A model generated the notes under the pieces. It was not told where the DNA came from and ran no database searches. It was given only the letters and a program-made list of their open reading frames with translations. Shown in pieces: positions 15,691 through 61,665 of a DNA stretch of 64,000 nt. The first letter of the stretch is position 1, and every line of letters starts with the position of its first letter. This DNA comes from Candidatus Adlerbacteria bacterium (GTDB taxonomy: Bacteria; Patescibacteriota; Minisyncoccia; Phycocordibacterales; SBAW01): assembly GCA_903819895.1 (NCBI GenBank), contig CAIJFH010000027.1, positions 1,675 through 65,674 of the forward strand, given 5' to 3'. Both the position numbers and the translations under genes were made by a program.

Positions 15691-15768
15691 CGCACCCTTA
15701 GCTCAGTTGGTAGAGCACACCCTTCACACGGGTGGGGTCGCAGGTTCGAGTCCTGCAGGGTGCACCAC
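15691..15768 (+). tRNA. tRNA-Val (anticodon CAC), CCA encoded
   Basis: The acceptor GCACCCT/AGGGTGC, D-arm GCTCAGTTGGTAGAGC, anticodon stem-loop CACCC-TTCACAC-GGGTG, T-arm GCAGGTTCGAGTCCTGC and a 3' ACCA are present. By my reading there are 2 extra nt between the D-stem and anticodon stem, possibly a transcription artefact of mine. Confidence 0.8.
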
Positions 15769-15914
15769 CCTGAGCAAGCAACCTGCGTTGCTTGCGTCAG
15801 GACGAGAAAGGCGGAGCATGTCGAGCCCAGCAGGGCGAGGCAGCGAGCCGGGGTCGCGGTCGAGGATGCGCGACGGCGCAGACGAGAACCGTGACCGAGT
15901 CGTTAGCAATAGTG

Positions 15915-15985
15915 CGGGCTGTAGTATACCGGTAGTACGCGCGCTTCGGGTGCGTGAAGACCGGGTTCGATTCCCGGCAGCCCGA
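15915..15985 (+). tRNA. tRNA-Pro (anticodon CGG), CCA not encoded
   Basis: The acceptor CGGGCTG/CAGCCCG, anticodon stem-loop CGCGC-TTCGGGT-GCGTG (G37) and T-arm CCGGGTTCGATTCCCGG are present. Confidence 0.75.
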
Positions 15986-16013
15986 CAAGTAGTGTAGAGT
16001 AAGTGAGACCGAG

Positions 16014-16055
16014 TTCGACCCGCCTGCCGGCGGGCAGGTTCCCGGCAGCCCGACA
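16014..16055 (+). terminator. Hairpin plus T-run after tRNA-Pro; contains second copy of tRNA-Pro 3' end (TTCCCGGCAGCCCGACA)
   Basis: The hairpin CTGCCGG-cgggcaggttc-CCGGCAG is followed by CCCGACAGAG and then TTTTTTT (16049-16055). Confidence 0.4.
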
Positions 16056-16102
16056 GAGTTTTTTTGTGTTACATTAATACGCGTGCCACATCGGCACGTT
16101 AG

Positions 16103-16173
16103 GGCCCATAGTTAAGTGGTAAAACGCTGCATTCGCATTGCAGAGGCGCGAGTCCGATTCTCGCTGGGTCCAC
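16103..16173 (+). tRNA. tRNA-Ala (anticodon CGC), G3:U70 present, CCA not encoded
   Basis: The acceptor GGGCCCA/TGGGTCC has a G3-U70 wobble. The anticodon stem-loop is CTGCA-TTCGCAT-TGCAG and the T-arm is GCGAGTCCGATTCTCGC. Confidence 0.8.
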
Positions 16174-56018: not shown

Positions 56019-56087
56019 AGGTGTCAGGAACCTTTTATACCTCTTTATCTCTTTGCGCCACAACGCAAAATGCGCTACTGTCGTGCT

Positions 56088-57197
56088 ATGAACGTGTTTG
56101 TCGGACTCTCGGGCGGGGTGGACTCCGCCGTATCAGCAGCACTGCTCCAGCAGCAGGGTTTTGACGTGGTCGGTGTGTTTATCCGCATCGCGCTGCCGGG
56201 CTACCCATGCACCGCCGGCACCGACAAGATCGAGGCGATGCGTGTCGCGGCACATCTCCACATCCCGTTTATCGAGATTGATTTGTCGAGTGAGTACGAG
56301 CAGGCAGTGTTCCAGACGAGCGTGCGCGAGTTTGCAAAGGGCAACACACCCAACCCCGACACCTTGTGCAACAAAGAAATCAAGTTTGGTGTCTTTTACC
56401 ACTGGGCGATGGCGCACGGCGCCGACCTGGTCGCCACGGGGCACTACGCACAATTGCAACACAACGCCGACGGCTCGGTCGAACTCTTGGCAGGCAAAGA
56501 TGCAGAGAAGGATCAAAGCTACTTTTTGTGGATGGTGCCCGAGGAGGCGCTGCGGCACACCCGCTTTCCGGTTGGTGGGATGGAAAAGCGCGAGGTCCGC
56601 GCACTGGCAAAAAAGTTTGCACTCCCCAACGCCACGCGCAAAGACAGTCAGGGCTTATGCTTTCTTGGTGACATATCAATCGCACAAATGCTCAACAAAG
56701 AACTGACTCTCGTGCCGGGTGATGTGTTGTCAGAGCAAGGGGAGGTGATTGGCACACACGATGGCGCAGCGCTCTACACTTTGGGGCAGCGGCACGGGTT
56801 TATGGTCACGGCACTTCCAACAAAAAATCAGACAAGAGAAAACGAGCAGGTGCATTCGAAAGAGTTACTGCCCCATTTTGTAATCTCAAAAGACATAGCA
56901 CACAACACAATTACTGTGTCGACCGAGCGATATCCAAAGAATAAAACCTGCACGAGTGTCTTGCTGCGTAACGTGCAGTGGATTGGTGACGTGGCACCCG
57001 GCGCATGCAGCGCGCGCTTTCGCTATCGACAAGAACTGATTCCCGCTACACTCGAGCACCCCACGAGCAATAGCGAGAACCGTGCGACCGTGATACTACA
57101 GGCGCCACACTATGTGCCCGAGGGCCAGTCGTTGGTGCTCTACCGAGGCGAGCGTTGCTTAGGCGGTGGGATCATCGAGCGCGGGGAATTGGGGTGA
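56088..57197 (+). CDS. mnmA: tRNA-specific 2-thiouridylase MnmA
   Basis: VGLSGGVDSAV (PP-loop) and CNKEIKFGVF are present. The start is ATG 56088. Confidence 0.9.
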   Translation: MNVFVGLSGGVDSAVSAALLQQQGFDVVGVFIRIALPGYPCTAGTDKIEAMRVAAHLHIPFIEIDLSSEYEQAVFQTSVREFAKGNTPNPDTLCNKEIKFGVFYHWAMAHGADLVATGHYAQLQHNADGSVELLAGKDAEKDQSYFLWMVPEEALRHTRFPVGGMEKREVRALAKKFALPNATRKDSQGLCFLGDISIAQMLNKELTLVPGDVLSEQGEVIGTHDGAALYTLGQRHGFMVTALPTKNQTRENEQVHSKELLPHFVISKDIAHNTITVSTERYPKNKTCTSVLLRNVQWIGDVAPGACSARFRYRQELIPATLEHPTSNSENRATVILQAPHYVPEGQSLVLYRGERCLGGGIIERGELG

Positions 57198-57248
57198 CGT
57201 GTTGATAACTTGCCACACGCGCCAAGAGAAAGAGCGTATACTCTGAGT

Positions 57249-57743
57249 ATGGCAAACGACAAGCGCAAGAGCCACCACTTGCTGGCAGGGTTGCTGGTTG
57301 TGTTGGTGCTCGCATTTTTGGCATTGTGGTATGTCGAGTCCACAACACAACACCCAAGCCCAACACCCGTGACAACCGCAACACCAACAAAGCCAGCACT
57401 CGTGCTCCCCGACGGATACACTTCTGACCCGACATACCAACAGCCGTCCACTCTCGCGCTGCGCCACACCAAGAGCAAACACGACCACATATATAGTGGT
57501 GCGTTGGTGGCATCTCCGTGCGACACATTCTCCAGCAGCGTGAGCACCCAGGGCGGGCCGCCCGCACACATCACACTTGGGCTGGTTATCCTGCGACCCG
57601 TGGGCACCTGTGTTGATGGTCCTGCAACCTCAACCCCATTTAGCTTTAGCGTCTCGGCAGCAGGCAGCTCGGCGACAAACCCGGTGTTTGACGCAGTCAC
57701 CATCAATGGCGAGCCAGTGACCATAACCACCACTGACCGATAA
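57249..57743 (+). CDS. Hypothetical membrane-anchored secreted protein
   Basis: A TM helix (LLAGLLVVLVLAFLALWYV) is followed by a Thr/Pro-rich linker and a small domain. Confidence 0.45.
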   Translation: MANDKRKSHHLLAGLLVVLVLAFLALWYVESTTQHPSPTPVTTATPTKPALVLPDGYTSDPTYQQPSTLALRHTKSKHDHIYSGALVASPCDTFSSSVSTQGGPPAHITLGLVILRPVGTCVDGPATSTPFSFSVSAAGSSATNPVFDAVTINGEPVTITTTDR

Positions 57744-57749
57744 TCACTC

Positions 57750-58577
57750 ATGGCCACTCTTGTTGCAAAAGCGGACGGCACCGCAGAACCGTTCGACCCA
57801 TCAAAGCTGCGCACCTCGCTGCGTCGCTCGGGTGCCGATGATGACGTCGCTGAAGAAATCTCCAAAGAAATCGAGACCGAGTTGTACAACAGTATCACCA
57901 CCAGCGAGATTTATCGCCGCGCATTTGCACATCTGCGCGATCATCGCCACAGCGCTGCCGCACGCTACTCGCTCAAGCGCGCGATACTCGACTTTGGCCC
58001 ATCGGGGTTCCCGTTTGAGGCATACCTCGCCGAGCTGTTTCGCACACAAGGGTACAGCGCAAGTATTGATCAAATCGTCAAAGGCGGCTGCGTCGAGCAC
58101 GAGGTAGATGTCGTGCTCAAGAAAGGGGATGAGACAACCTATGTCGAAGCCAAGTTCCACAACACGGCGGGATTTAAGACCGACCTCAAGACAACACTGT
58201 ATGTCAAAGCGCGCATCGACGACATCCGCGCTGCGCGTCCAAACGAGCAGGTGCGTGGGTTGCTGGTCACCAACACCAAATTTACGAGCGTCGCGATGCA
58301 GTACGCGCTGTGCGAGGGGTTGCCACTCCTGGGGTGGGAGTACCCCAACGAGCACAACCTCCATGACCAGATCGACGAAGCAAAGTTGTATCCGATTACC
58401 GCGCTCACCACACTCAGCAAACGTGAGAAAATGGCCCTACTCGGCGACAGAAAAGTCCTCTGTAGCGCCTTGTCGCACGACTCGGACGCGCTGTCGCGGA
58501 TTGGTATCCATGGCAAACGCGCCGACACCATACTCCAAGAGGTGGGGGCATTGTGCCTCCCCAAGAAGGAGCTATAA
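57750..58577 (+). CDS. ATP-cone domain fused to Mrr-like PD-(D/E)xK restriction-endonuclease domain
   Basis: The N-terminus LVAKADGTAEPFDPSKLRTSLRRSG...SEIYRRAFAHL matches the ATP-cone pattern (V.KRDG..E.FD..KI). The D...EAK core is VEHEVDVVLKKGDETTYVEAKFH, with Mrr_cat-like topology. Confidence 0.7.
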   Translation: MATLVAKADGTAEPFDPSKLRTSLRRSGADDDVAEEISKEIETELYNSITTSEIYRRAFAHLRDHRHSAAARYSLKRAILDFGPSGFPFEAYLAELFRTQGYSASIDQIVKGGCVEHEVDVVLKKGDETTYVEAKFHNTAGFKTDLKTTLYVKARIDDIRAARPNEQVRGLLVTNTKFTSVAMQYALCEGLPLLGWEYPNEHNLHDQIDEAKLYPITALTTLSKREKMALLGDRKVLCSALSHDSDALSRIGIHGKRADTILQEVGALCLPKKEL

Positions 58578-58620: not shown

Positions 58621-59349
58621 ATGCAAACGAACAGCAATCAGGGACAGGGGAGCAATCAGAATAATCAGCAAGGCGGACAGCAGAAGTCGACGCTTTCGTG
58701 GTCACAGCCAACCAATACACAAGGCAACAAGCCACAGCAGCAAAGCCAGCCAAGCCGCCCGCTGCCACCAACCGTGCCTGCCTCATCGGGCAGCAACACG
58801 CCGTGGGTTATCGCGGGTGTTATCATTGTTATCGCGCTCATCGTCTGGGGCTTTAACTCGGGACGCAACACAGGCGACCAGCAAGGTGCCGAGAACGCAA
58901 CCAGCACCAACTCGGTAGCAACCGAGACAACCTCCAGCACCACGCCGAGCACATCGGACACTACTGCGACAACCGACAATACCTCTGGTGCTGCAGCCAC
59001 TACGGCAACTACACCAACTACTGCGGGCACGATTGCTGGGCTCACTATTCCATCACCACAAACAGCTGGCATGCAAGTTGCAGTTGCTGCGGTTGATGTC
59101 AGCACCCCAACATGGGTGGTTGTCTACGAGGACAACAACGGCGTCCCGGGCAACGTGCTTGGCGCTGGTCTCTTTACCTCCAGCAACAAAAGCGGTGTTG
59201 TCGAGTTGCTCCGCGGCACGCTCCCGGGCCAGACCTACTTTGTCGGCGAGTCACGCGACGATGGCGACCGTATGTACTCGATGACCAACGACCCGGCAAC
59301 GCGCGACCAGAGCGGCAACCCCGTGTTGACCACCTTCCAAACCAAATAA
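58621..59349 (+). CDS. Hypothetical membrane protein with Q/N-rich N-terminus, Ser/Thr-rich linker and C-terminal beta domain
   Basis: The composition is low-complexity and there is a single TM helix (WVIAGVIIVIALIVWGF). Confidence 0.45.
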   Translation: MQTNSNQGQGSNQNNQQGGQQKSTLSWSQPTNTQGNKPQQQSQPSRPLPPTVPASSGSNTPWVIAGVIIVIALIVWGFNSGRNTGDQQGAENATSTNSVATETTSSTTPSTSDTTATTDNTSGAAATTATTPTTAGTIAGLTIPSPQTAGMQVAVAAVDVSTPTWVVVYEDNNGVPGNVLGAGLFTSSNKSGVVELLRGTLPGQTYFVGESRDDGDRMYSMTNDPATRDQSGNPVLTTFQTK

Positions 59350-59355
59350 GCATCT

Positions 59356-59838
59356 ATGGATACACTGCTGCACACTATATCGCCATTTGGGCTCGCTGAG
59401 TTTGGGTTTATCTGGCGACTCTTGGTGGCAGCGGTGCTGGGCACCCTGATGGGGCTCGAGCGATCCATCGCTGGCAAACATGCAGGCATGCGCACCTACG
59501 CACTCGTGGCGATGGGCTCATGCCTCTTTTGCTTGATCAGTGTCTTGGCGGGGTTTGAGCTCACCAGTTTTGCCGCAACCAACCCGCTTCTTATTGCATC
59601 CTCGGTGGTGGTTGGCATCGGCTTTATCGGCAGCGGGCTGGCGCTCACCCATGGCGAGAAGCTCGGCGAGCTGACCACCGCCTCGGGCGTGTGGGTCGTC
59701 GCTGGTGTTGGCATGGCGTGCGGCTTTGGACTGTTTATCACTGCAGCGGTTGCAACCATTCTCACTATCATCATCTTCTCGTTCTTCTCGCGGGTCGAGC
59801 GCTACCTGCGCATCACTTGGGGAGTTGATGGGCAATAG
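59356..59838 (+). CDS. MgtC/SapB family membrane protein
   Basis: LLVAAVLGTLMGLERSIAGKHAGMRTYALVAMGSCLF is the MgtC signature. Confidence 0.85.
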   Translation: MDTLLHTISPFGLAEFGFIWRLLVAAVLGTLMGLERSIAGKHAGMRTYALVAMGSCLFCLISVLAGFELTSFAATNPLLIASSVVVGIGFIGSGLALTHGEKLGELTTASGVWVVAGVGMACGFGLFITAAVATILTIIIFSFFSRVERYLRITWGVDGQ

Positions 59839-59873
59839 GGTACAATAGGAGCTCGCCTCGCGAGTACGATACT

Positions 59874-60746
59874 ATGAGCTCCTACTATAAACCACATCGC
59901 AACACGGGCTGGAACTATGGTGGCCGCAATTGGCGCCTCTCGCGCAGCAAAATCGCGCTCTTTGTCGAGTGCGCACGTTGCTTCTATATCGACAACAAGC
60001 TCGGCACGGCGCGGCCACCAGGGTTCCCCTTCAATCTCAACTCGGCGGTCGACGCATTGCTCAAGAAAGAGTTCGATATACACCGCACTGCTGCATCGTC
60101 ACACCCGATTATGCAGCAGTATGGCGTCGACGCGGTGCCGTACCAGCATGCCGAGATGGATATTTGGCGCGAGAACTTTAAAGGCATCGAGTTTCGCCAT
60201 CTGCCAACGGGCTTTACTATCGCGGGCGCGGTCGACGATGTGTGGGTCAACCCCCAAGGCGAGCTGATTGTCGTCGACTACAAATCGACCAGCAAGGATG
60301 AAAAAATCGATGCGCTCGACGCCGACTGGCACGACGGCTACAAGCGGCAGATGGAGACGTACCAATGGTTGCTGCGCCAGCGCGGGTTTAAGGTCTCCAA
60401 CACGGGCTACTTTGTCTATGCCAACGCGAGCAAAGATCGCCCCGCGTTCGACGGCAAGCTGGAGTTTGACCTCACGCTGATCCCGCATGTCGGCAATACC
60501 GACTGGATCGAACCAACCATTGCCAAACTCAAACTCTGCCTCGACAGCAACGCGCTCCCCGCCGCTGCACCCGACTGCGACTACTGCACCTACCGCCAAG
60601 CCGTCGAGGATGATTTGCGCGAACACGAGTCAAAACACGGAGGACGGACCTCCGTATCAAAAGAAGTAGAACCCACGCCAGCACCAGCCACAAAACCAGT
60701 AAGCAAAAAATCCAACAGCAGCGAACCAACGGGGCAGCTATTCTAA
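59874..60746 (+). CDS. Cas4/RecB-like PD-(D/E)xK nuclease with four-Cys cluster (orphan, no CRISPR context)
   Basis: N-terminal ECARCFY, the ELIVVDYKSTS core (D, E, K) and C-terminal PDCDYCTY are present. A palindromic GGACGGACC hairpin lies inside the 3' end (60637-60655), so the true stop may be earlier or the tail is a low-complexity extension. Confidence 0.65.
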   Translation: MSSYYKPHRNTGWNYGGRNWRLSRSKIALFVECARCFYIDNKLGTARPPGFPFNLNSAVDALLKKEFDIHRTAASSHPIMQQYGVDAVPYQHAEMDIWRENFKGIEFRHLPTGFTIAGAVDDVWVNPQGELIVVDYKSTSKDEKIDALDADWHDGYKRQMETYQWLLRQRGFKVSNTGYFVYANASKDRPAFDGKLEFDLTLIPHVGNTDWIEPTIAKLKLCLDSNALPAAAPDCDYCTYRQAVEDDLREHESKHGGRTSVSKEVEPTPAPATKPVSKKSNSSEPTGQLF

Positions 60747-60752
60747 CTACCC

Positions 60753-61406
60753 ATGGTTGAAACATCAACAGAAAAAATCATTTACCTTGTCCGACACGGG
60801 CAAACTCATGGGAACGTCGACCCAGTGTTTCAAGGTGTCGACTCAACGCTCAATACGACAGGACGCGAGCAAGCGGAACAAGTAGCGCAACGTGTTGCAA
60901 GATTATCTTTCGATACATTGGTTGCAAGCCCGCGCATGCGCACAAGGGAGACAGCTGAGATTATCGCCCGAGCAACTGGCAAAACTCCGGAATATGCGGA
61001 CGTGTTTGTCGAACGCACCAAACCAACACGCGTCGATGGCAGACCATACACAGACACCGAAGCAAATGCACTCTGGCAGTTATGGGAACAGAGCATCTAT
61101 ACACCGGGCATGCGCGCAGAGGATGGCGAAAATTTTGATGACATTATTGCACGTGCGGACAAGGCGCTCGATTTTCTCCAAAACCGATTCGAACAAGCGC
61201 TCGTGGTCGTAACACATGGACACTTTTTGCGCACACTTGTTGCCCGCATTTTGCTCGGCAGTTCTCTTACTGGCGATAATTTTAGACACTTCCAAGCGAG
61301 CATCAAAACAGAAAATACGGGTATCACTGTATTGAAGTATGACGCAGCACGAACAGAAGCGCCTTGGCGTTTGTGGATCTATAACGACCATGCACATCTT
61401 GGATAA
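60753..61406 (+). CDS. Histidine phosphatase family protein, paralog 2
   Basis: LVRHGQT and VVTHGHF are present. Confidence 0.8.
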   Translation: MVETSTEKIIYLVRHGQTHGNVDPVFQGVDSTLNTTGREQAEQVAQRVARLSFDTLVASPRMRTRETAEIIARATGKTPEYADVFVERTKPTRVDGRPYTDTEANALWQLWEQSIYTPGMRAEDGENFDDIIARADKALDFLQNRFEQALVVVTHGHFLRTLVARILLGSSLTGDNFRHFQASIKTENTGITVLKYDAARTEAPWRLWIYNDHAHLG

Positions 61407-61665
61407 ATCAACATCTTTCGCCGAGCGCGTCCGCGCGGTTGTGGCGCAAATTCCGAAAGGCGAGACAATGACATACCAGCAAGTGGCAACGAAGGCGGGG
61501 AACGCAAACGCTGCGCGAGCGGTTGGCACAGTGATGTCAAAGAACTTTGACCCGAACATCCCGTGCCACCGGGTCGTCCGCTCCGACGGCACACCTGGTG
61601 GGTACAACCGCGGCGGGAGTACTCGCAAAGCAGCACTCCTCCAAGCCGAACACTCGCACACATAG
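61390..61665 (+). CDS. Methylated-DNA-protein-cysteine methyltransferase DNA-binding domain protein (Ogt C-terminal domain only)
   Basis: The PCHRVV active-site motif and the ETMTYQQVA helix are present. The start ATG 61390 overlaps the previous gene by 17 nt. Confidence 0.75.
   Translation: MHILDKSTSFAERVRAVVAQIPKGETMTYQQVATKAGNANAARAVGTVMSKNFDPNIPCHRVVRSDGTPGGYNRGGSTRKAALLQAEHSHT

What the first reader, a model, noticed from the sequence alone, without database searches (positions are those of the whole stretch)
57750..58577. ATP-cone regulatory domain fused to an Mrr-like PD-(D/E)xK endonuclease domain
The N-terminal 85 aa match the ATP-cone (nucleotide-sensing domain of NrdR/RNR). The C-terminal half has an Mrr_cat-type nuclease core (D in VDVV, E-A-K in YVEAKFH). 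This suggests a nucleotide-pool-regulated DNA endonuclease, possibly an anti-phage or stress effector. It stands alone with no methyltransferase partner.
Basis: partly seen in the sequence, partly recalled or inferred. Interest (0 to 1): 0.55.

Follow-up and report, generated by a model that had tools for sequence, protein, structure and literature searches.

The report
ATP-cone fused to Mrr-type nuclease
This gene encodes a predicted DNA-cutting enzyme with an ATP/dATP-sensing domain at its front; it belongs to a large, catalogued but unstudied bacterial family that behaves like a conserved chromosomal stress or housekeeping gene, not like an anti-phage restriction enzyme.

Summary
ORF 57750-58577 (+, 275 aa) has an ATP-cone (res 5-77, 43 bits, cutoff 25.8) and an Mrr_cat PD-(D/E)xK core (res 86-186, 34 bits, cutoff 21). 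D120 and E133-A-K135 are invariant in 45 diverse relatives. Residues 89-265 match the crystal structure of A. fulgidus AF1548 (1Y88, E=9e-24).

Five of six NrdR nucleotide-contact positions are kept.

The fusion is not rare. There are more than 7,500 90%-identity clusters, named 'ATP cone domain-containing protein' or 'restriction endonuclease' in databases. I found no paper on it.

The defence reading is poorly supported:
- No methyltransferase and no known defence system lie nearby.
- No homologues occur in phages or IMG/VR, and only 2 in 72,556 plasmids.
- In 82 candidate-phyla-radiation (CPR, Patescibacteria) loci it keeps a fixed place (MnmA > gene > DUF7282 > MgtC > PDDEXK_1 > MGMT-like).
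- It evolves about as slowly as MnmA.

In Bacteroidota and Chlamydiota it lies in a co-directional operon: USP, beta-CASP RNase, AMP-phosphorylase-like enzyme, PRPP-synthetase-like enzyme, P-type ATPase and glycolytic genes. This resembles low-oxygen stress islands.

Best reading: an adenine-nucleotide-gated nuclease for stress or housekeeping. Its substrate, ligand and switch direction are untested.

The parts
57750..58577 (+). Whole ORF, 275 aa: ATP-cone + AF1548/Mrr-type PD-(D/E)xK nuclease + (HhH)2-like C-terminal domain
   Evidence: ORF list. Identical protein P0001 on record from MAG GCA_903934455.1. AF2 model with pLDDT 82.6.
57762..57980 (+). ATP-cone domain (residues 5-77)
   Evidence: Pfam PF03477, 43.4 bits against cutoff 25.8. 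Foldseek matches NrdR ATP-cones 7p37 and 9fxk at rmsd 1.7-1.9 A over 71 residues. V5, K7, E13, F15 and K19 have the same spacing as the S. coelicolor NrdR nucleotide contacts V48, K50, E56, F58 and K62; the R51 position is A8.
57996..58019 (+). Linker motif GPSGFPFE (residues 83-90) joining the ATP-cone to the first nuclease helix. G83, G86, F89 and E90 are family-invariant.
   Evidence: This is the most conserved segment of the protein, 79.6% mean identity in the CPR set.
58005..58307 (+). Mrr_cat / AF1548-type PD-(D/E)xK nuclease core (residues 86-186). Catalytic candidates are D120 (58107-58109), E133 (58146-58148) and K135 (58152-58154). H117, E118, Y151, R155, D158 and N175 are also invariant.
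   Evidence: Pfam PF04471, 34.2 bits against cutoff 21. phmmer to 1Y88, E=9e-24. Foldseek to 1Y88, E=5.8e-15, TM(target) 0.81, followed by MspJI, Can2/Card1 and NucS. Residue conservation.
58389..58550 (+). AF1548-like_C domain (residues 214-267), a five-helix (HhH)2/SAM-like fold that probably binds nucleic acid or mediates oligomerisation
56070..57197 (+). Context: mnmA (tRNA 2-thiouridine synthase), the conserved upstream neighbour in CPR relatives
   Evidence: Pfam families. Present upstream on the same strand in 77 of 82 loci.
57210..57743 (+). Context: small membrane-protein ORF of unknown family that ends 7 nt before the ATG. It evolves fast.
   Evidence: no Pfam family. tblastn detects it in only 12 of 82 loci.
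58621..61665 (+). Context: conserved downstream same-strand neighbours. DUF7282-like membrane protein (58621-59349), MgtC (59356-59838), orphan Cas4-like PDDEXK_1 nuclease (59874-60746), His_Phos_1 (60753-61406), MGMT-type DNA_binding_1 protein (61339-61665).
   Evidence: Pfam. Synteny counts out of 82 loci: DUF7282 77, MgtC 60, PDDEXK_1 72, MGMT-like 62, His_Phos 2.

Best explanation
The gene encodes a cytoplasmic, three-domain nuclease of the AF1548 (COG1787) branch of the Mrr_cat PD-(D/E)xK clan.

Shown:
- The three domains are an N-terminal ATP-cone, a nuclease core, and an (HhH)2/SAM-like C-terminal domain.
- The catalytic residues and the nucleotide-contact residues are conserved.
- The gene is vertically inherited and syntenic in CPR bacteria.
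- In other phyla it lies inside a stress and energy-metabolism operon.

Inferred mechanism:
- The ATP-cone binds an adenine nucleotide: ATP, dATP, or possibly ADP/AMP.
- As in ribonucleotide reductases and NrdR, this changes the oligomeric state or the packing of the cone.
- The change passes through the invariant GPSGFPFE linker to the first active-site helix (E90).
- This switches cleavage on or off.
- The C-terminal domain holds the nucleic-acid backbone or supports oligomerisation.

Inferred role: a housekeeping or stress nuclease coupled to energy or dNTP status, acting in DNA maintenance or nucleic-acid turnover. It is not a restriction or anti-phage enzyme. The substrate (DNA or RNA), the ligand and the direction of the switch are unknown.
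For: Domains and fold:
- Both Pfam domains score above their curated cutoffs.
- Residues 89-265 match 1Y88 at E=9e-24.
- In the AF2 model, the nuclease plus C-terminal part matches 1Y88 and the cone matches NrdR cones.
- The C-terminal fold is (HhH)2/SAM-like.

Conserved residues:
- E90, D120, E133 and K135 are invariant in 45 diverse relatives. K7 is kept in 44 of 45, K19 in 43, F15 in 39 (the other 6 are Y) and E13 in 34.
- These cone positions correspond to residues whose mutation abolishes nucleotide binding in NrdR (PMC9110341).
- The linker is the best-conserved segment.

Family size and uniformity:
- 437 clusters at 50% identity with E<1e-30, nearly all 270-290 aa and full length.
- More than 7,593 clusters at 90% identity.

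Against mobility or defence:
-.
- Synteny in 82 CPR loci, with ~63% identity for this protein against ~60% for MnmA.
- Uniform GC content.

Stress context outside CPR:
- Annotated operons occur in Pontibacter and Criblamydia.
- Among 85 loci, a beta-CASP gene lies next door in 30 of 50 informative loci, and at least one island gene is present in 40 of 50.
- After de-replication at 70% identity the figures are 10 and 19 of 28 clusters.
- The partners are a tandem USP, an aCPSF1-like beta-CASP RNase, an archaeal-type (AMP-phosphorylase-like) phosphorylase, a PRPP-synthetase-like enzyme, type II GAPDH, PFK and a P-type ATPase.
- MBL, PRS and TP homologues are induced by microoxia in B. diazoefficiens (PMC6515984).
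- The same gene categories make up the B. cenocepacia lxa low-oxygen locus (PMC3721108, PMC6127331).
Against: - No biochemical data exist for any family member, AF1548 included. No paper on the fusion was found.
- The Arg that contacts phosphate in S. coelicolor NrdR (R51) is Ala or Ser family-wide, so ligand affinity or identity may differ.
- The stress operon is absent from the 64-kb window and from all CPR loci. The CPR context (mnmA, MgtC, Cas4-like nuclease, MGMT-like, then NUDIX and UDG) points weakly towards DNA maintenance.
- After de-replication only about one third of non-CPR lineages have the beta-CASP gene next door.
- Part of the CPR synteny may reflect shared ancestry only.
- No FNR/Anr box was found in any locus.
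Confidence: 0.55

Rival explanations
1. Anti-phage or anti-MGE effector. A type IV-like restriction or abortive-infection nuclease that is released when infection perturbs the ATP/dATP pool.
For: - Mrr_cat nuclease domains are common in defence proteins. The only PADLOC hit is to the Mrr-like nuclease domain of ZorD, and it is weak (E=0.007).
- The structural neighbours include MspJI, AspBHI, McrBC and the ligand-gated CRISPR ancillary nucleases Can2/Card1, which share the sensor-plus-PD-(D/E)xK logic.
- The two plasmid copies lie on plasmids, and the Criblamydia one is 8 kb from an AbiE toxin-antitoxin pair.
Against: - No defence family reaches significance, and no defence genes lie next door.
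- Absent from phages and IMG/VR; present in only 2 of 72,556 plasmids.
- Slowly evolving, found at one fixed chromosomal position in 82 CPR loci among housekeeping genes, and compositionally native.
- No Mrr_N modified-DNA reader domain.
- Elsewhere it is co-transcribed with metabolic and stress genes.
Confidence: 0.08
2. DNA repair or recombination nuclease. A structure-specific endonuclease built like XPF/Mus81 or UvrC (nuclease + (HhH)2), or a Holliday-junction-resolvase-like enzyme, whose activity is tied to dNTP/ATP availability.
For: - NucS/EndoMS is among the Foldseek hits.
- The CPR neighbourhood carries an orphan Cas4-like PDDEXK_1 nuclease, an MGMT-type DNA-binding protein, NUDIX and UDG.
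- Some sources name homologues 'Holliday junction resolvase'.
- One non-island locus has Dps next door; this identification rests on my reading of the sequence.
Against: - No Hjc, ERCC4 or other repair-nuclease Pfam family is hit.
- The repair-flavoured neighbours occur only in CPR and may be plain synteny.
- Outside CPR the partners are metabolic and stress genes, not repair genes.
- (HhH)2/SAM-like folds also serve as protein-protein modules.
Confidence: 0.2
3. Energy-starvation nucleic-acid catabolism. When ATP falls, the nuclease makes the first cuts in RNA or DNA. The neighbouring beta-CASP exonuclease, AMP-phosphorylase-like enzyme and PRPP-synthetase-like enzyme then feed ribose-phosphate into glycolysis or phosphoketolase for substrate-level ATP. 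This is a specific version of the best explanation.
For: - The co-directional operon order is GAPDH-II, PFK, 2-hydroxyacid dehydrogenase, USP, this gene, beta-CASP, TP-family, PRS, P-type ATPase. The Criblamydia copy adds phosphoketolase, glycogen phosphorylase and acetate kinase.
- MBL, PRS and TP homologues are induced by microoxia.
- A metal-dependent RNase, USPs, PFK and a cation ATPase are found in the lxa low-oxygen locus.
Against: - This rests purely on guilt by association.
- The operon is missing in CPR and in about one third of the de-replicated non-CPR lineages.
- RNA cleavage by this branch of PD-(D/E)xK enzymes has not been shown.
- The TP-family protein scores just under the AMP-phosphorylase cutoff (506 against 535 bits).
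Confidence: 0.2
4. Non-catalytic regulator. An NrdR-like nucleotide-sensing DNA-binding protein in which the nuclease fold and the HhH domain only bind DNA.
For: The best-studied stand-alone ATP-cone protein, NrdR, is a repressor. PD-(D/E)xK folds are sometimes used as DNA-binding modules.
Against: E90, D120, E133 and K135, plus H117, E118 and N175, are invariant across 45 diverse sequences. That is not expected for a degenerate active site. There is no Zn-ribbon or HTH domain.
Confidence: 0.05

Closest known systems
AF1548 of Archaeoglobus fulgidus (PDB 1Y88; COG1787, 'HJR/Mrr/RecB family endonuclease'), a structural-genomics protein of unknown function
   Different: AF1548 (199 aa) has no ATP-cone. 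It has Q where this family has the invariant E90 and H117 (alignment). Neither protein has been characterised biochemically.
Mrr and other type IV modification-dependent restriction endonucleases (Mrr_cat, PF04471; MspJI, AspBHI)
   Same: The same Pfam catalytic-domain family, scored above its cutoff, with the PD-(D/E)xK fold and motif.
   Different: There is no Mrr_N or SRA-like modified-DNA reader domain; the N-terminus is an ATP-cone. The gene is not in a defence island, is not mobile and is slowly evolving.
NrdR and the ATP-cone activity sites of ribonucleotide reductases
   Same: The ATP-cone fold (rmsd 1.7-1.9 A to NrdR cones) and five of six nucleotide-contact positions. The expected logic is the same: adenine-nucleotide binding controls oligomerisation and activity.
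   Different: The output domain is a nuclease, not a Zn-ribbon DNA binder or an RNR catalytic subunit. The R51 equivalent is Ala or Ser. Ligand binding is untested.
Ligand-gated PD-(D/E)xK nucleases of CRISPR/CBASS signalling (Can2, Card1, Cdn1)
   Same: A two-part logic of nucleotide-sensor domain plus PD-(D/E)xK effector. The nuclease domains are structural neighbours (Foldseek E~1e-4).
   Different: The sensor is an ATP-cone that reads ordinary cellular adenine nucleotides, not a CARF or SAVED domain that reads cyclic oligoadenylates. There is no CRISPR or CBASS context.
Low-oxygen or dormancy gene islands (B. cenocepacia lxa locus; M. tuberculosis DosR regulon)
   Same: Outside CPR the operon around family members has the same gene categories: USPs, phosphofructokinase, cation P-type ATPase and an MBL-fold metal-dependent RNase.
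   Different: Those papers report no ATP-cone nuclease. No FNR/Anr box was found in the loci here. The window's own CPR locus lacks the island altogether.

Membership tests
ATP-cone (PF03477) | Profile score at or above the curated cutoff | tested here: met
   43.4 bits against 25.8, E=5.2e-11, residues 5-77.
ATP-cone (PF03477) | Beta-hairpin plus four-helix cone fold | tested here: met
   AF2 model: E4-6, E12-14, then helices 17-26, 31-44, 51-65 and 74-86. Foldseek to NrdR cones 7p37 and 9fxk, rmsd 1.7-1.9 A over 71 residues.
ATP-cone (PF03477) | Nucleotide-contact residues (S. coelicolor NrdR V48, K50, R51, E56, F58, K62) | tested here: inconclusive
   V5, K7, E13, F15 and K19 are present with identical spacing and conserved in the family. 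The R51 position is A8, and is Ala or Ser family-wide.
ATP-cone (PF03477) | Binds ATP/dATP and changes oligomeric state | not testable with these tools
   Needs purified protein (ITC, SEC-MALS, mass photometry).
Mrr_cat / PD-(D/E)xK nuclease (PF04471) | Profile score at or above the curated cutoff | tested here: met
   34.2 bits against 21, E=3e-8, residues 86-186.
Mrr_cat / PD-(D/E)xK nuclease (PF04471) | Catalytic D...(D/E)xK motif on the conserved alpha-beta-beta-beta-alpha-beta core | tested here: met
   D120 and E133-x-K135 align with D38/E51/K53 of 1Y88 and are invariant in 45 sequences. The fold matches 1Y88, MspJI, Can2 and NucS.
Mrr_cat / PD-(D/E)xK nuclease (PF04471) | Mg2+-dependent phosphodiester cleavage | not testable with these tools
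   No biochemical data for any family member were found.
Mrr proper / type IV restriction enzyme | N-terminal modified-DNA recognition domain (Mrr_N winged helix or equivalent) | tested here: not met
   The N-terminus is an ATP-cone. No Mrr_N or SRA family appears among Pfam hits up to E=1.
Restriction-modification system | Cognate methyltransferase or specificity partner encoded nearby | tested here: not met
   The gene list for +/-10 kb has no methyltransferase, and none appears in the conserved CPR synteny.
Known anti-phage defence systems (PADLOC-DB 2.0) | Significant match of the protein or its neighbours to a defence-system model | tested here: not met
   Only a ZorD nuclease-domain hit, E=0.0068, 12 bits. 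Neighbours give only Cas4-like hits for an orphan PDDEXK_1 gene with no other cas genes.
AF1548-like family (COG1787 branch; PF22357 C-terminal domain) | Homology to AF1548 across the nuclease core and the C-terminal helical domain | tested here: met
NrdR | N-terminal Zn-ribbon followed by an ATP-cone | tested here: not met
   There is no Zn-ribbon. The cone starts at residue 5 and is followed by a nuclease.
Archaeal Holliday junction resolvase Hjc (the name some sources give homologues) | Match to Hjc family PF01870 | tested here: not met
   PF01870 is not among the Pfam hits up to E=1. The name appears only as a source annotation.

The most novel reading that the evidence does not exclude
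The family is an adenylate- or dATP-gated nuclease that starts controlled breakdown of the cell's own nucleic acids when energy runs out. It would feed a beta-CASP exonuclease, AMP-phosphorylase-like enzyme, ribose-phosphate and then glycolysis/phosphoketolase route during hypoxia or dormancy. In reduced CPR bacteria it would be kept as a core enzyme linking nucleotide status to DNA/RNA turnover. This would be the first ATP-cone shown to control an enzyme outside ribonucleotide reduction, and the first nuclease switched by ordinary ATP/dATP levels.
Probability: 0.2. Interest if true: 0.7.

Novelty: new variant of a known kind. Interest (0 to 1): 0.42.

Why it matters
ATP-cones have been studied experimentally almost only in ribonucleotide reductases and NrdR. 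A nuclease under ATP-cone control would extend that allosteric module to nucleic-acid cleavage.

The family is large: thousands of sequence clusters in CPR/Patescibacteria, Bacteroidota and Chlamydiota. It has a solved homologue structure (1Y88), and it occurs in cultivable hosts such as Empedobacter, Pontibacter and Mucilaginibacter. The hypothesis is therefore directly testable.

The conserved operon with USP, a beta-CASP RNase, an AMP-phosphorylase-like enzyme and a PRPP-synthetase-like enzyme suggests a link between energy stress and nucleic-acid turnover. I did not find this link described in the library I searched.

For genome annotation, the practical point is that these genes should not be labelled restriction endonucleases or counted as defence genes.

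Tried and rejected
- **Four-cysteine metal or Fe-S site.** C114, C188, C238 and C269 are invariant in the CPR set. In 45 diverse sequences C238 and C269 are often replaced by V, I or L (33 and 25 of 45 are Cys). Only C114 and C188 are near-invariant. I rejected a four-Cys cluster.
- **Sequence search of the cone alone against PDB.** This gave only noise. The family profile aligns residues 3-58 to E. coli NrdA 5-62, but only at E~0.7-0.9. Support for the cone therefore rests on Pfam, the fold and the contact residues.
- **Literature.** Ten full-text searches found no paper on the fusion: ATP-cone or 'ATP cone' combined with restriction endonuclease, Mrr, nuclease, defense or endonuclease; AF1548; 1Y88; 'ATP cone domain-containing'. 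AF1548 appears only as a predicted nuclease.
- **Bradyrhizobium supplements.** Searching for an ATP-cone gene next to bll3115-3117 found nothing.
- **FNR/Anr box.** TTGAT-N4-ATCAA had 0 matches in 167 loci.
- **Promoter and terminator scan around the gene.** Not above shuffled expectation.
- **Island partners in the window and CPR loci.** tblastn with MBL, TP, PRS, phosphoketolase, GlgP and AckA found none. The only partner hit was a weak P-type ATPase match in one CPR locus, L046.
- **Metagenome scan with the 45-sequence alignment.** It failed because no stretch was conserved enough. I repeated it with a 9-sequence alignment.
- **Taxon names for ten distant representatives.** Only one cluster carried names, Empedobacter.
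Full report

Yes. The + strand carries an ATG-initiated ORF at 57750..58577 encoding 275 aa.

Pfam finds two domains above their curated cutoffs:
- ATP-cone (PF03477) at residues 5-77, E=5.2e-11, 43.4 bits against a cutoff of 25.8.
- Mrr_cat (PF04471) at residues 86-186, E=3e-8, 34.2 bits against a cutoff of 21.

**2. Anatomy.**

A sequence search of the PDB gives a single strong relative: the structural-genomics protein AF1548 of Archaeoglobus fulgidus (1Y88). The match is E=9e-24 and spans residues 89-265, that is, the nuclease core and the C-terminal domain. The family profile raises this to E=2e-36.

Two papers predicted AF1548 to be a PD-(D/E)xK nuclease with catalytic D38, E51 and K53 (PMC1821046; PMC1874628). 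A superfamily survey files 1Y88 with Mrr_cat and COG1787 (PMC3424549). In the alignment those residues are D120, E133 and K135 here.

An AlphaFold2 model built on 26 homologues has mean pLDDT 82.6. Foldseek against the PDB gives:
- 1Y88 first (E=5.8e-15, target TM 0.81).
- Then MspJI, Can2/Card1, Cdn1, NucS/EndoMS, AspBHI and McrC-type nuclease domains.
- The N-terminal part superposes on the ATP-cones of NrdR (7p37, 9fxk) at 1.7-1.9 A over 71 residues.

**3. Does the ATP-cone look functional?**

In S. coelicolor NrdR, K50, R51 and E56 contact the inner-site ATP and K62 contacts the outer-site nucleotide. F58 shapes the adenine pocket. Mutating V48, K50, E56 or K62 impairs nucleotide binding (PMC9110341). 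With identical spacing, the window protein has V5, K7, A8, E13, F15 and K19.

Conservation in 45 relatives that are 33-59% identical to the window protein:
- K7: 44 of 45.
- K19: 43 of 45.
- F15: 39 of 45, with Y in the other 6.
- E13: 34 of 45.
- The R51 position is Ala or Ser in most of the family.

So five of six contact positions are kept. Binding of an adenine nucleotide is plausible but unproven, and the ligand preference may differ from NrdR.

Family-invariant positions are G10, G83, G86, F89, E90, G112, H117, E118, D120, E133, K135, Y151, R155, D158, N175, W196 and P215.

The linker plus first nuclease helix (residues 81-100, motif GPSGFPFE) is the most conserved segment: 79.6% mean identity, against 61-71% for the three domains in the CPR set. 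This is what one would expect if the cone communicates with the active site through that segment. That step is an inference.

**4. How common is it, and where?**

The identical protein is already on record from a metagenome-assembled genome, GCA_903934455.1. The closest genomes are labelled Candidatus Adlerbacteria, Paceibacterota or Patescibacteria, that is, candidate phyla radiation (CPR).

The family is large and uniform:
- 1,175 clusters at 50% identity with E<=1e-3 and 437 with E<=1e-30. Nearly all are 270-290 aa and match end to end.
- A second search seeded with the Mucilaginibacter homologue returned more than 7,593 clusters at 90% identity, many from Bacteroidota.
- Source names are 'ATP cone domain-containing protein', 'restriction endonuclease', 'ATPase', 'HJR/Mrr/RecB family endonuclease' and 'Holliday junction resolvase'.

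The architecture is therefore catalogued. Ten full-text searches found no paper that discusses it.

**5. Context in CPR, the window's own lineage.**

In 82 loci from genomes the gene keeps one position on one strand:

mnmA, sometimes a small fast-evolving membrane ORF, this gene, a DUF7282-like membrane protein, MgtC, an orphan Cas4-like PDDEXK_1 nuclease, an MGMT-type DNA_binding_1 protein.

| Neighbour | Loci with it (of 82) |
|---|---|
| mnmA | 77 |
| DUF7282-like | 77 |
| MgtC | 60 |
| PDDEXK_1 | 72 |
| MGMT-like | 62 |

These counts come; domain identities come.

The protein's identity to the window copy (about 63%) is close to that of MnmA (about 60%). It therefore evolves like a housekeeping gene.

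Other checks:
- GC content is uniform across the region.
- Promoter- and terminator-like sites are no more frequent than in shuffled sequence.
- No methyltransferase and no defence gene is nearby.

**6. Mobility and defence tests.**

- PADLOC gives only a marginal hit to the nuclease domain of ZorD.
- tblastn finds nothing in 50,697 phage records and only two hits in 72,556 plasmids.
- Signature-peptide scans of 2.9 million IMG/VR contigs find none.

These results argue against a defence or selfish-element role. They do not formally exclude it.

**7. Context outside CPR.**

The two plasmid copies are informative because they are annotated.
- Pontibacter actiniarum: 2-hydroxyacid dehydrogenase, ATP-cone protein, MBL-fold hydrolase, thymidine-phosphorylase-family protein, ribose-phosphate pyrophosphokinase.
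- Criblamydia sequanensis: CusA, P-type ATPase, phosphoketolase, glycogen phosphorylase, ATP-cone protein, MBL-fold hydrolase, thymidine-phosphorylase-family protein, ribose-phosphate pyrophosphokinase, acetate kinase. All are on one strand.
- The same partners surround homologues in Mucilaginibacter and in three metagenomic contigs.

A metagenome scan returned 80 more loci. I called ORFs, clustered the neighbours and annotated cluster representatives. The recurrent co-directional order is:

type II GAPDH, PFK, 2-hydroxyacid dehydrogenase, tandem USP, this gene, an 84-aa ORF, a beta-CASP/RMMBL hydrolase, an archaeal-type phosphorylase, a PRPP-synthetase-like protein, a 219-aa unknown, a P-type ATPase.

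Annotation details:
- The beta-CASP hydrolase resembles the aCPSF1 core but scores below the equivalog cutoffs.
- The phosphorylase passes TIGR02645. It scores 506 bits against the 535-bit cutoff for AMP phosphorylase.
- The PRPP-synthetase-like protein falls in subfamily PRK07199.

| Neighbour | Raw count |
|---|---|
| beta-CASP directly downstream | 30 of 50 loci with at least 3 kb downstream |
| TP-family | 22 of 43 |
| PRS | 22 of 43 |
| P-type ATPase | 26 of 43 |
| USP directly upstream | 24 of 60 |
| at least one island gene | 40 of 50 |

Many of these loci are related, so I de-replicated the focal proteins by single linkage.

| Identity threshold | Informative clusters | beta-CASP next door | Any island gene |
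|---|---|---|---|
| 70% | 28 | 10 | 19 |
| 60% | 15 | 5 | 8 |

The association is real but not universal. Loci without the island show other neighbours. By my reading of the sequences, these include a Dps-like protein and a His-rich cation-diffusion-type transporter.

None of the island's beta-CASP, phosphorylase or PRPP-synthetase partners is present in the 64-kb window or in the CPR loci.

**8. What the island resembles.**

In Bradyrhizobium diazoefficiens the adjacent MBL-fold, ribose-phosphate pyrophosphokinase and thymidine-phosphorylase-family genes (bll3115-3117) are induced under microoxia. So are a phosphoketolase and a CusA-type transporter (PMC6515984).

The low-oxygen-activated lxa locus of Burkholderia cenocepacia contains USPs, a phosphofructokinase, a cation-transporting ATPase and a metal-dependent RNase. 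Its authors compare it with the M. tuberculosis DosR regulon (PMC3721108; PMC6127331).

The gene categories are the same as in the operon found here. Neither paper mentions an ATP-cone nuclease, and I found no FNR/Anr box in any of the 167 loci. The link to low-oxygen or energy stress is therefore an analogy supported by gene content, not a demonstrated regulon.

**9. Most likely mechanism.**

Shown:
- The three-domain architecture.
- Intact and co-conserved catalytic and nucleotide-contact residues.
- Vertical inheritance in CPR.
- Operon membership with stress and energy genes in other phyla.

Inferred:
- The cone binds ATP, dATP or possibly ADP/AMP.
- As in RNRs and NrdR, binding alters oligomerisation or domain packing.
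- This gates the PD-(D/E)xK site through the invariant linker.
- The (HhH)2-like domain positions a nucleic-acid duplex or supports assembly.

Biological role: a nuclease coupled to energy or dNTP status. Two sub-readings compete. One is nucleic-acid turnover feeding nucleotide and ribose catabolism under energy stress, which fits the non-CPR operon. The other is DNA maintenance, which fits the nuclease + (HhH)2 layout and the CPR neighbours: the Cas4-like nuclease, the MGMT-like protein, and NUDIX and UDG further downstream. I cannot separate them with these tools.

**10. Comparison with known systems.**

- The protein is a member of the ATP-cone and Mrr_cat Pfam families and of the AF1548-like branch.
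- It is not Mrr proper, because it has no modified-DNA reader domain.
- It is not part of an R-M system.
- It is not NrdR, because it has no Zn-ribbon.
- It is not Hjc.
- It is not a known defence system.
- In logic it works like the ligand-gated PD-(D/E)xK nucleases Can2 and Card1 (sensor plus nuclease), but the sensor reads ordinary adenine nucleotides.

**11. Verdict.**

The domain interpretation is right. The anti-phage suggestion is unlikely, and the 'stress effector' suggestion is the better one.

The gene is an ordinary member of a large, already catalogued but uncharacterised family, so the window itself holds nothing unique. The family is moderately interesting for two reasons. It would extend ATP-cone allostery to a nuclease. 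And its conserved operon partners give a concrete, testable hypothesis.

Interest 0.42. Novelty: a new variant of a known kind, namely a sensor-domain-gated PD-(D/E)xK nuclease.

Noticed in passing
window 59874-60746 (+): An orphan Cas4-like PDDEXK_1 nuclease (290 aa) with no other cas genes nearby. It has Cys motifs 'ECARCF' near the N-terminus and 'CDYCTY' near the C-terminus, reminiscent of the Cas4/AddB iron-sulfur 'staple'. It is conserved two to three genes downstream of the ATP-cone nuclease in 72 of 82 CPR loci.
   Followed up: partly
window 59356-59838 (+); L081, L083, L085, L087 and many of L088-L167: A cation-transport theme recurs next to family members. CPR loci carry MgtC (60 of 82). 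Bacteroidota and Chlamydiota loci carry P-type ATPases (26 of 43) and CusA/CusB RND efflux genes. Two loci carry a His-rich CDF-like transporter. From memory, MgtC is known from mgtCB operons with a P-type Mg2+ ATPase. Whether this is meaningful or coincidental is unknown.
   Followed up: partly
L087 (Criblamydia sequanensis plasmid NZ_LK031773) against L083 and L086 (Bacteroidota): The operon partners on the Criblamydia plasmid are 54-65% identical to their Bacteroidota counterparts (beta-CASP 56%, TP 53-60%, PRS 54-65%). This suggests the whole island moved horizontally between phyla.
   Followed up: no
L093, L100, L102, L104, L105, L109, L110, L113, L116, L126, L128, L135 (about +880 nt from the gene start): A conserved 84-aa ORF with no Pfam family sits between the ATP-cone nuclease and the beta-CASP gene in 18 loci. 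A conserved 219-aa unknown follows the PRPP-synthetase-like gene in 20 loci. They may be small partners or regulators.
   Followed up: partly
window 57750-58577, residues C114, H117, C188: C114 and C188 are near-invariant (44 of 45) and H117 is invariant in the ATP-cone-fused family, whereas AF1548, which lacks the cone, has Q at the H117 position. This could be a redox-sensitive pair or a metal site.
   Followed up: partly
window 60753-61406 and 61339-61665 (+): The His_Phos_1 gene and the MGMT-type DNA_binding_1 ORF overlap by 68 nt if the longest ORF is taken; the gene call on record starts the latter about 50 nt later. The His_Phos_1 gene is found at this position only in the window's own genome (2 of 82 loci), so it looks like a recent insertion into otherwise conserved synteny.
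   Followed up: no
window 15692-16173 (+): A cluster of three tRNA genes: Val-CAC, Pro-CGG and Ala-CGC. These are the only Rfam or ARAGORN hits in the 64-kb window.
   Followed up: no
window 58621-59349 (+): The downstream neighbour is a 242-aa protein with a Q/N-rich N-terminus, one predicted membrane helix, a long T/S-rich low-complexity linker and a C-terminal DUF7282 domain (25.5 bits, just under the cutoff of 27). The C-terminal domain is conserved in 77 of 82 CPR loci.
   Followed up: partly
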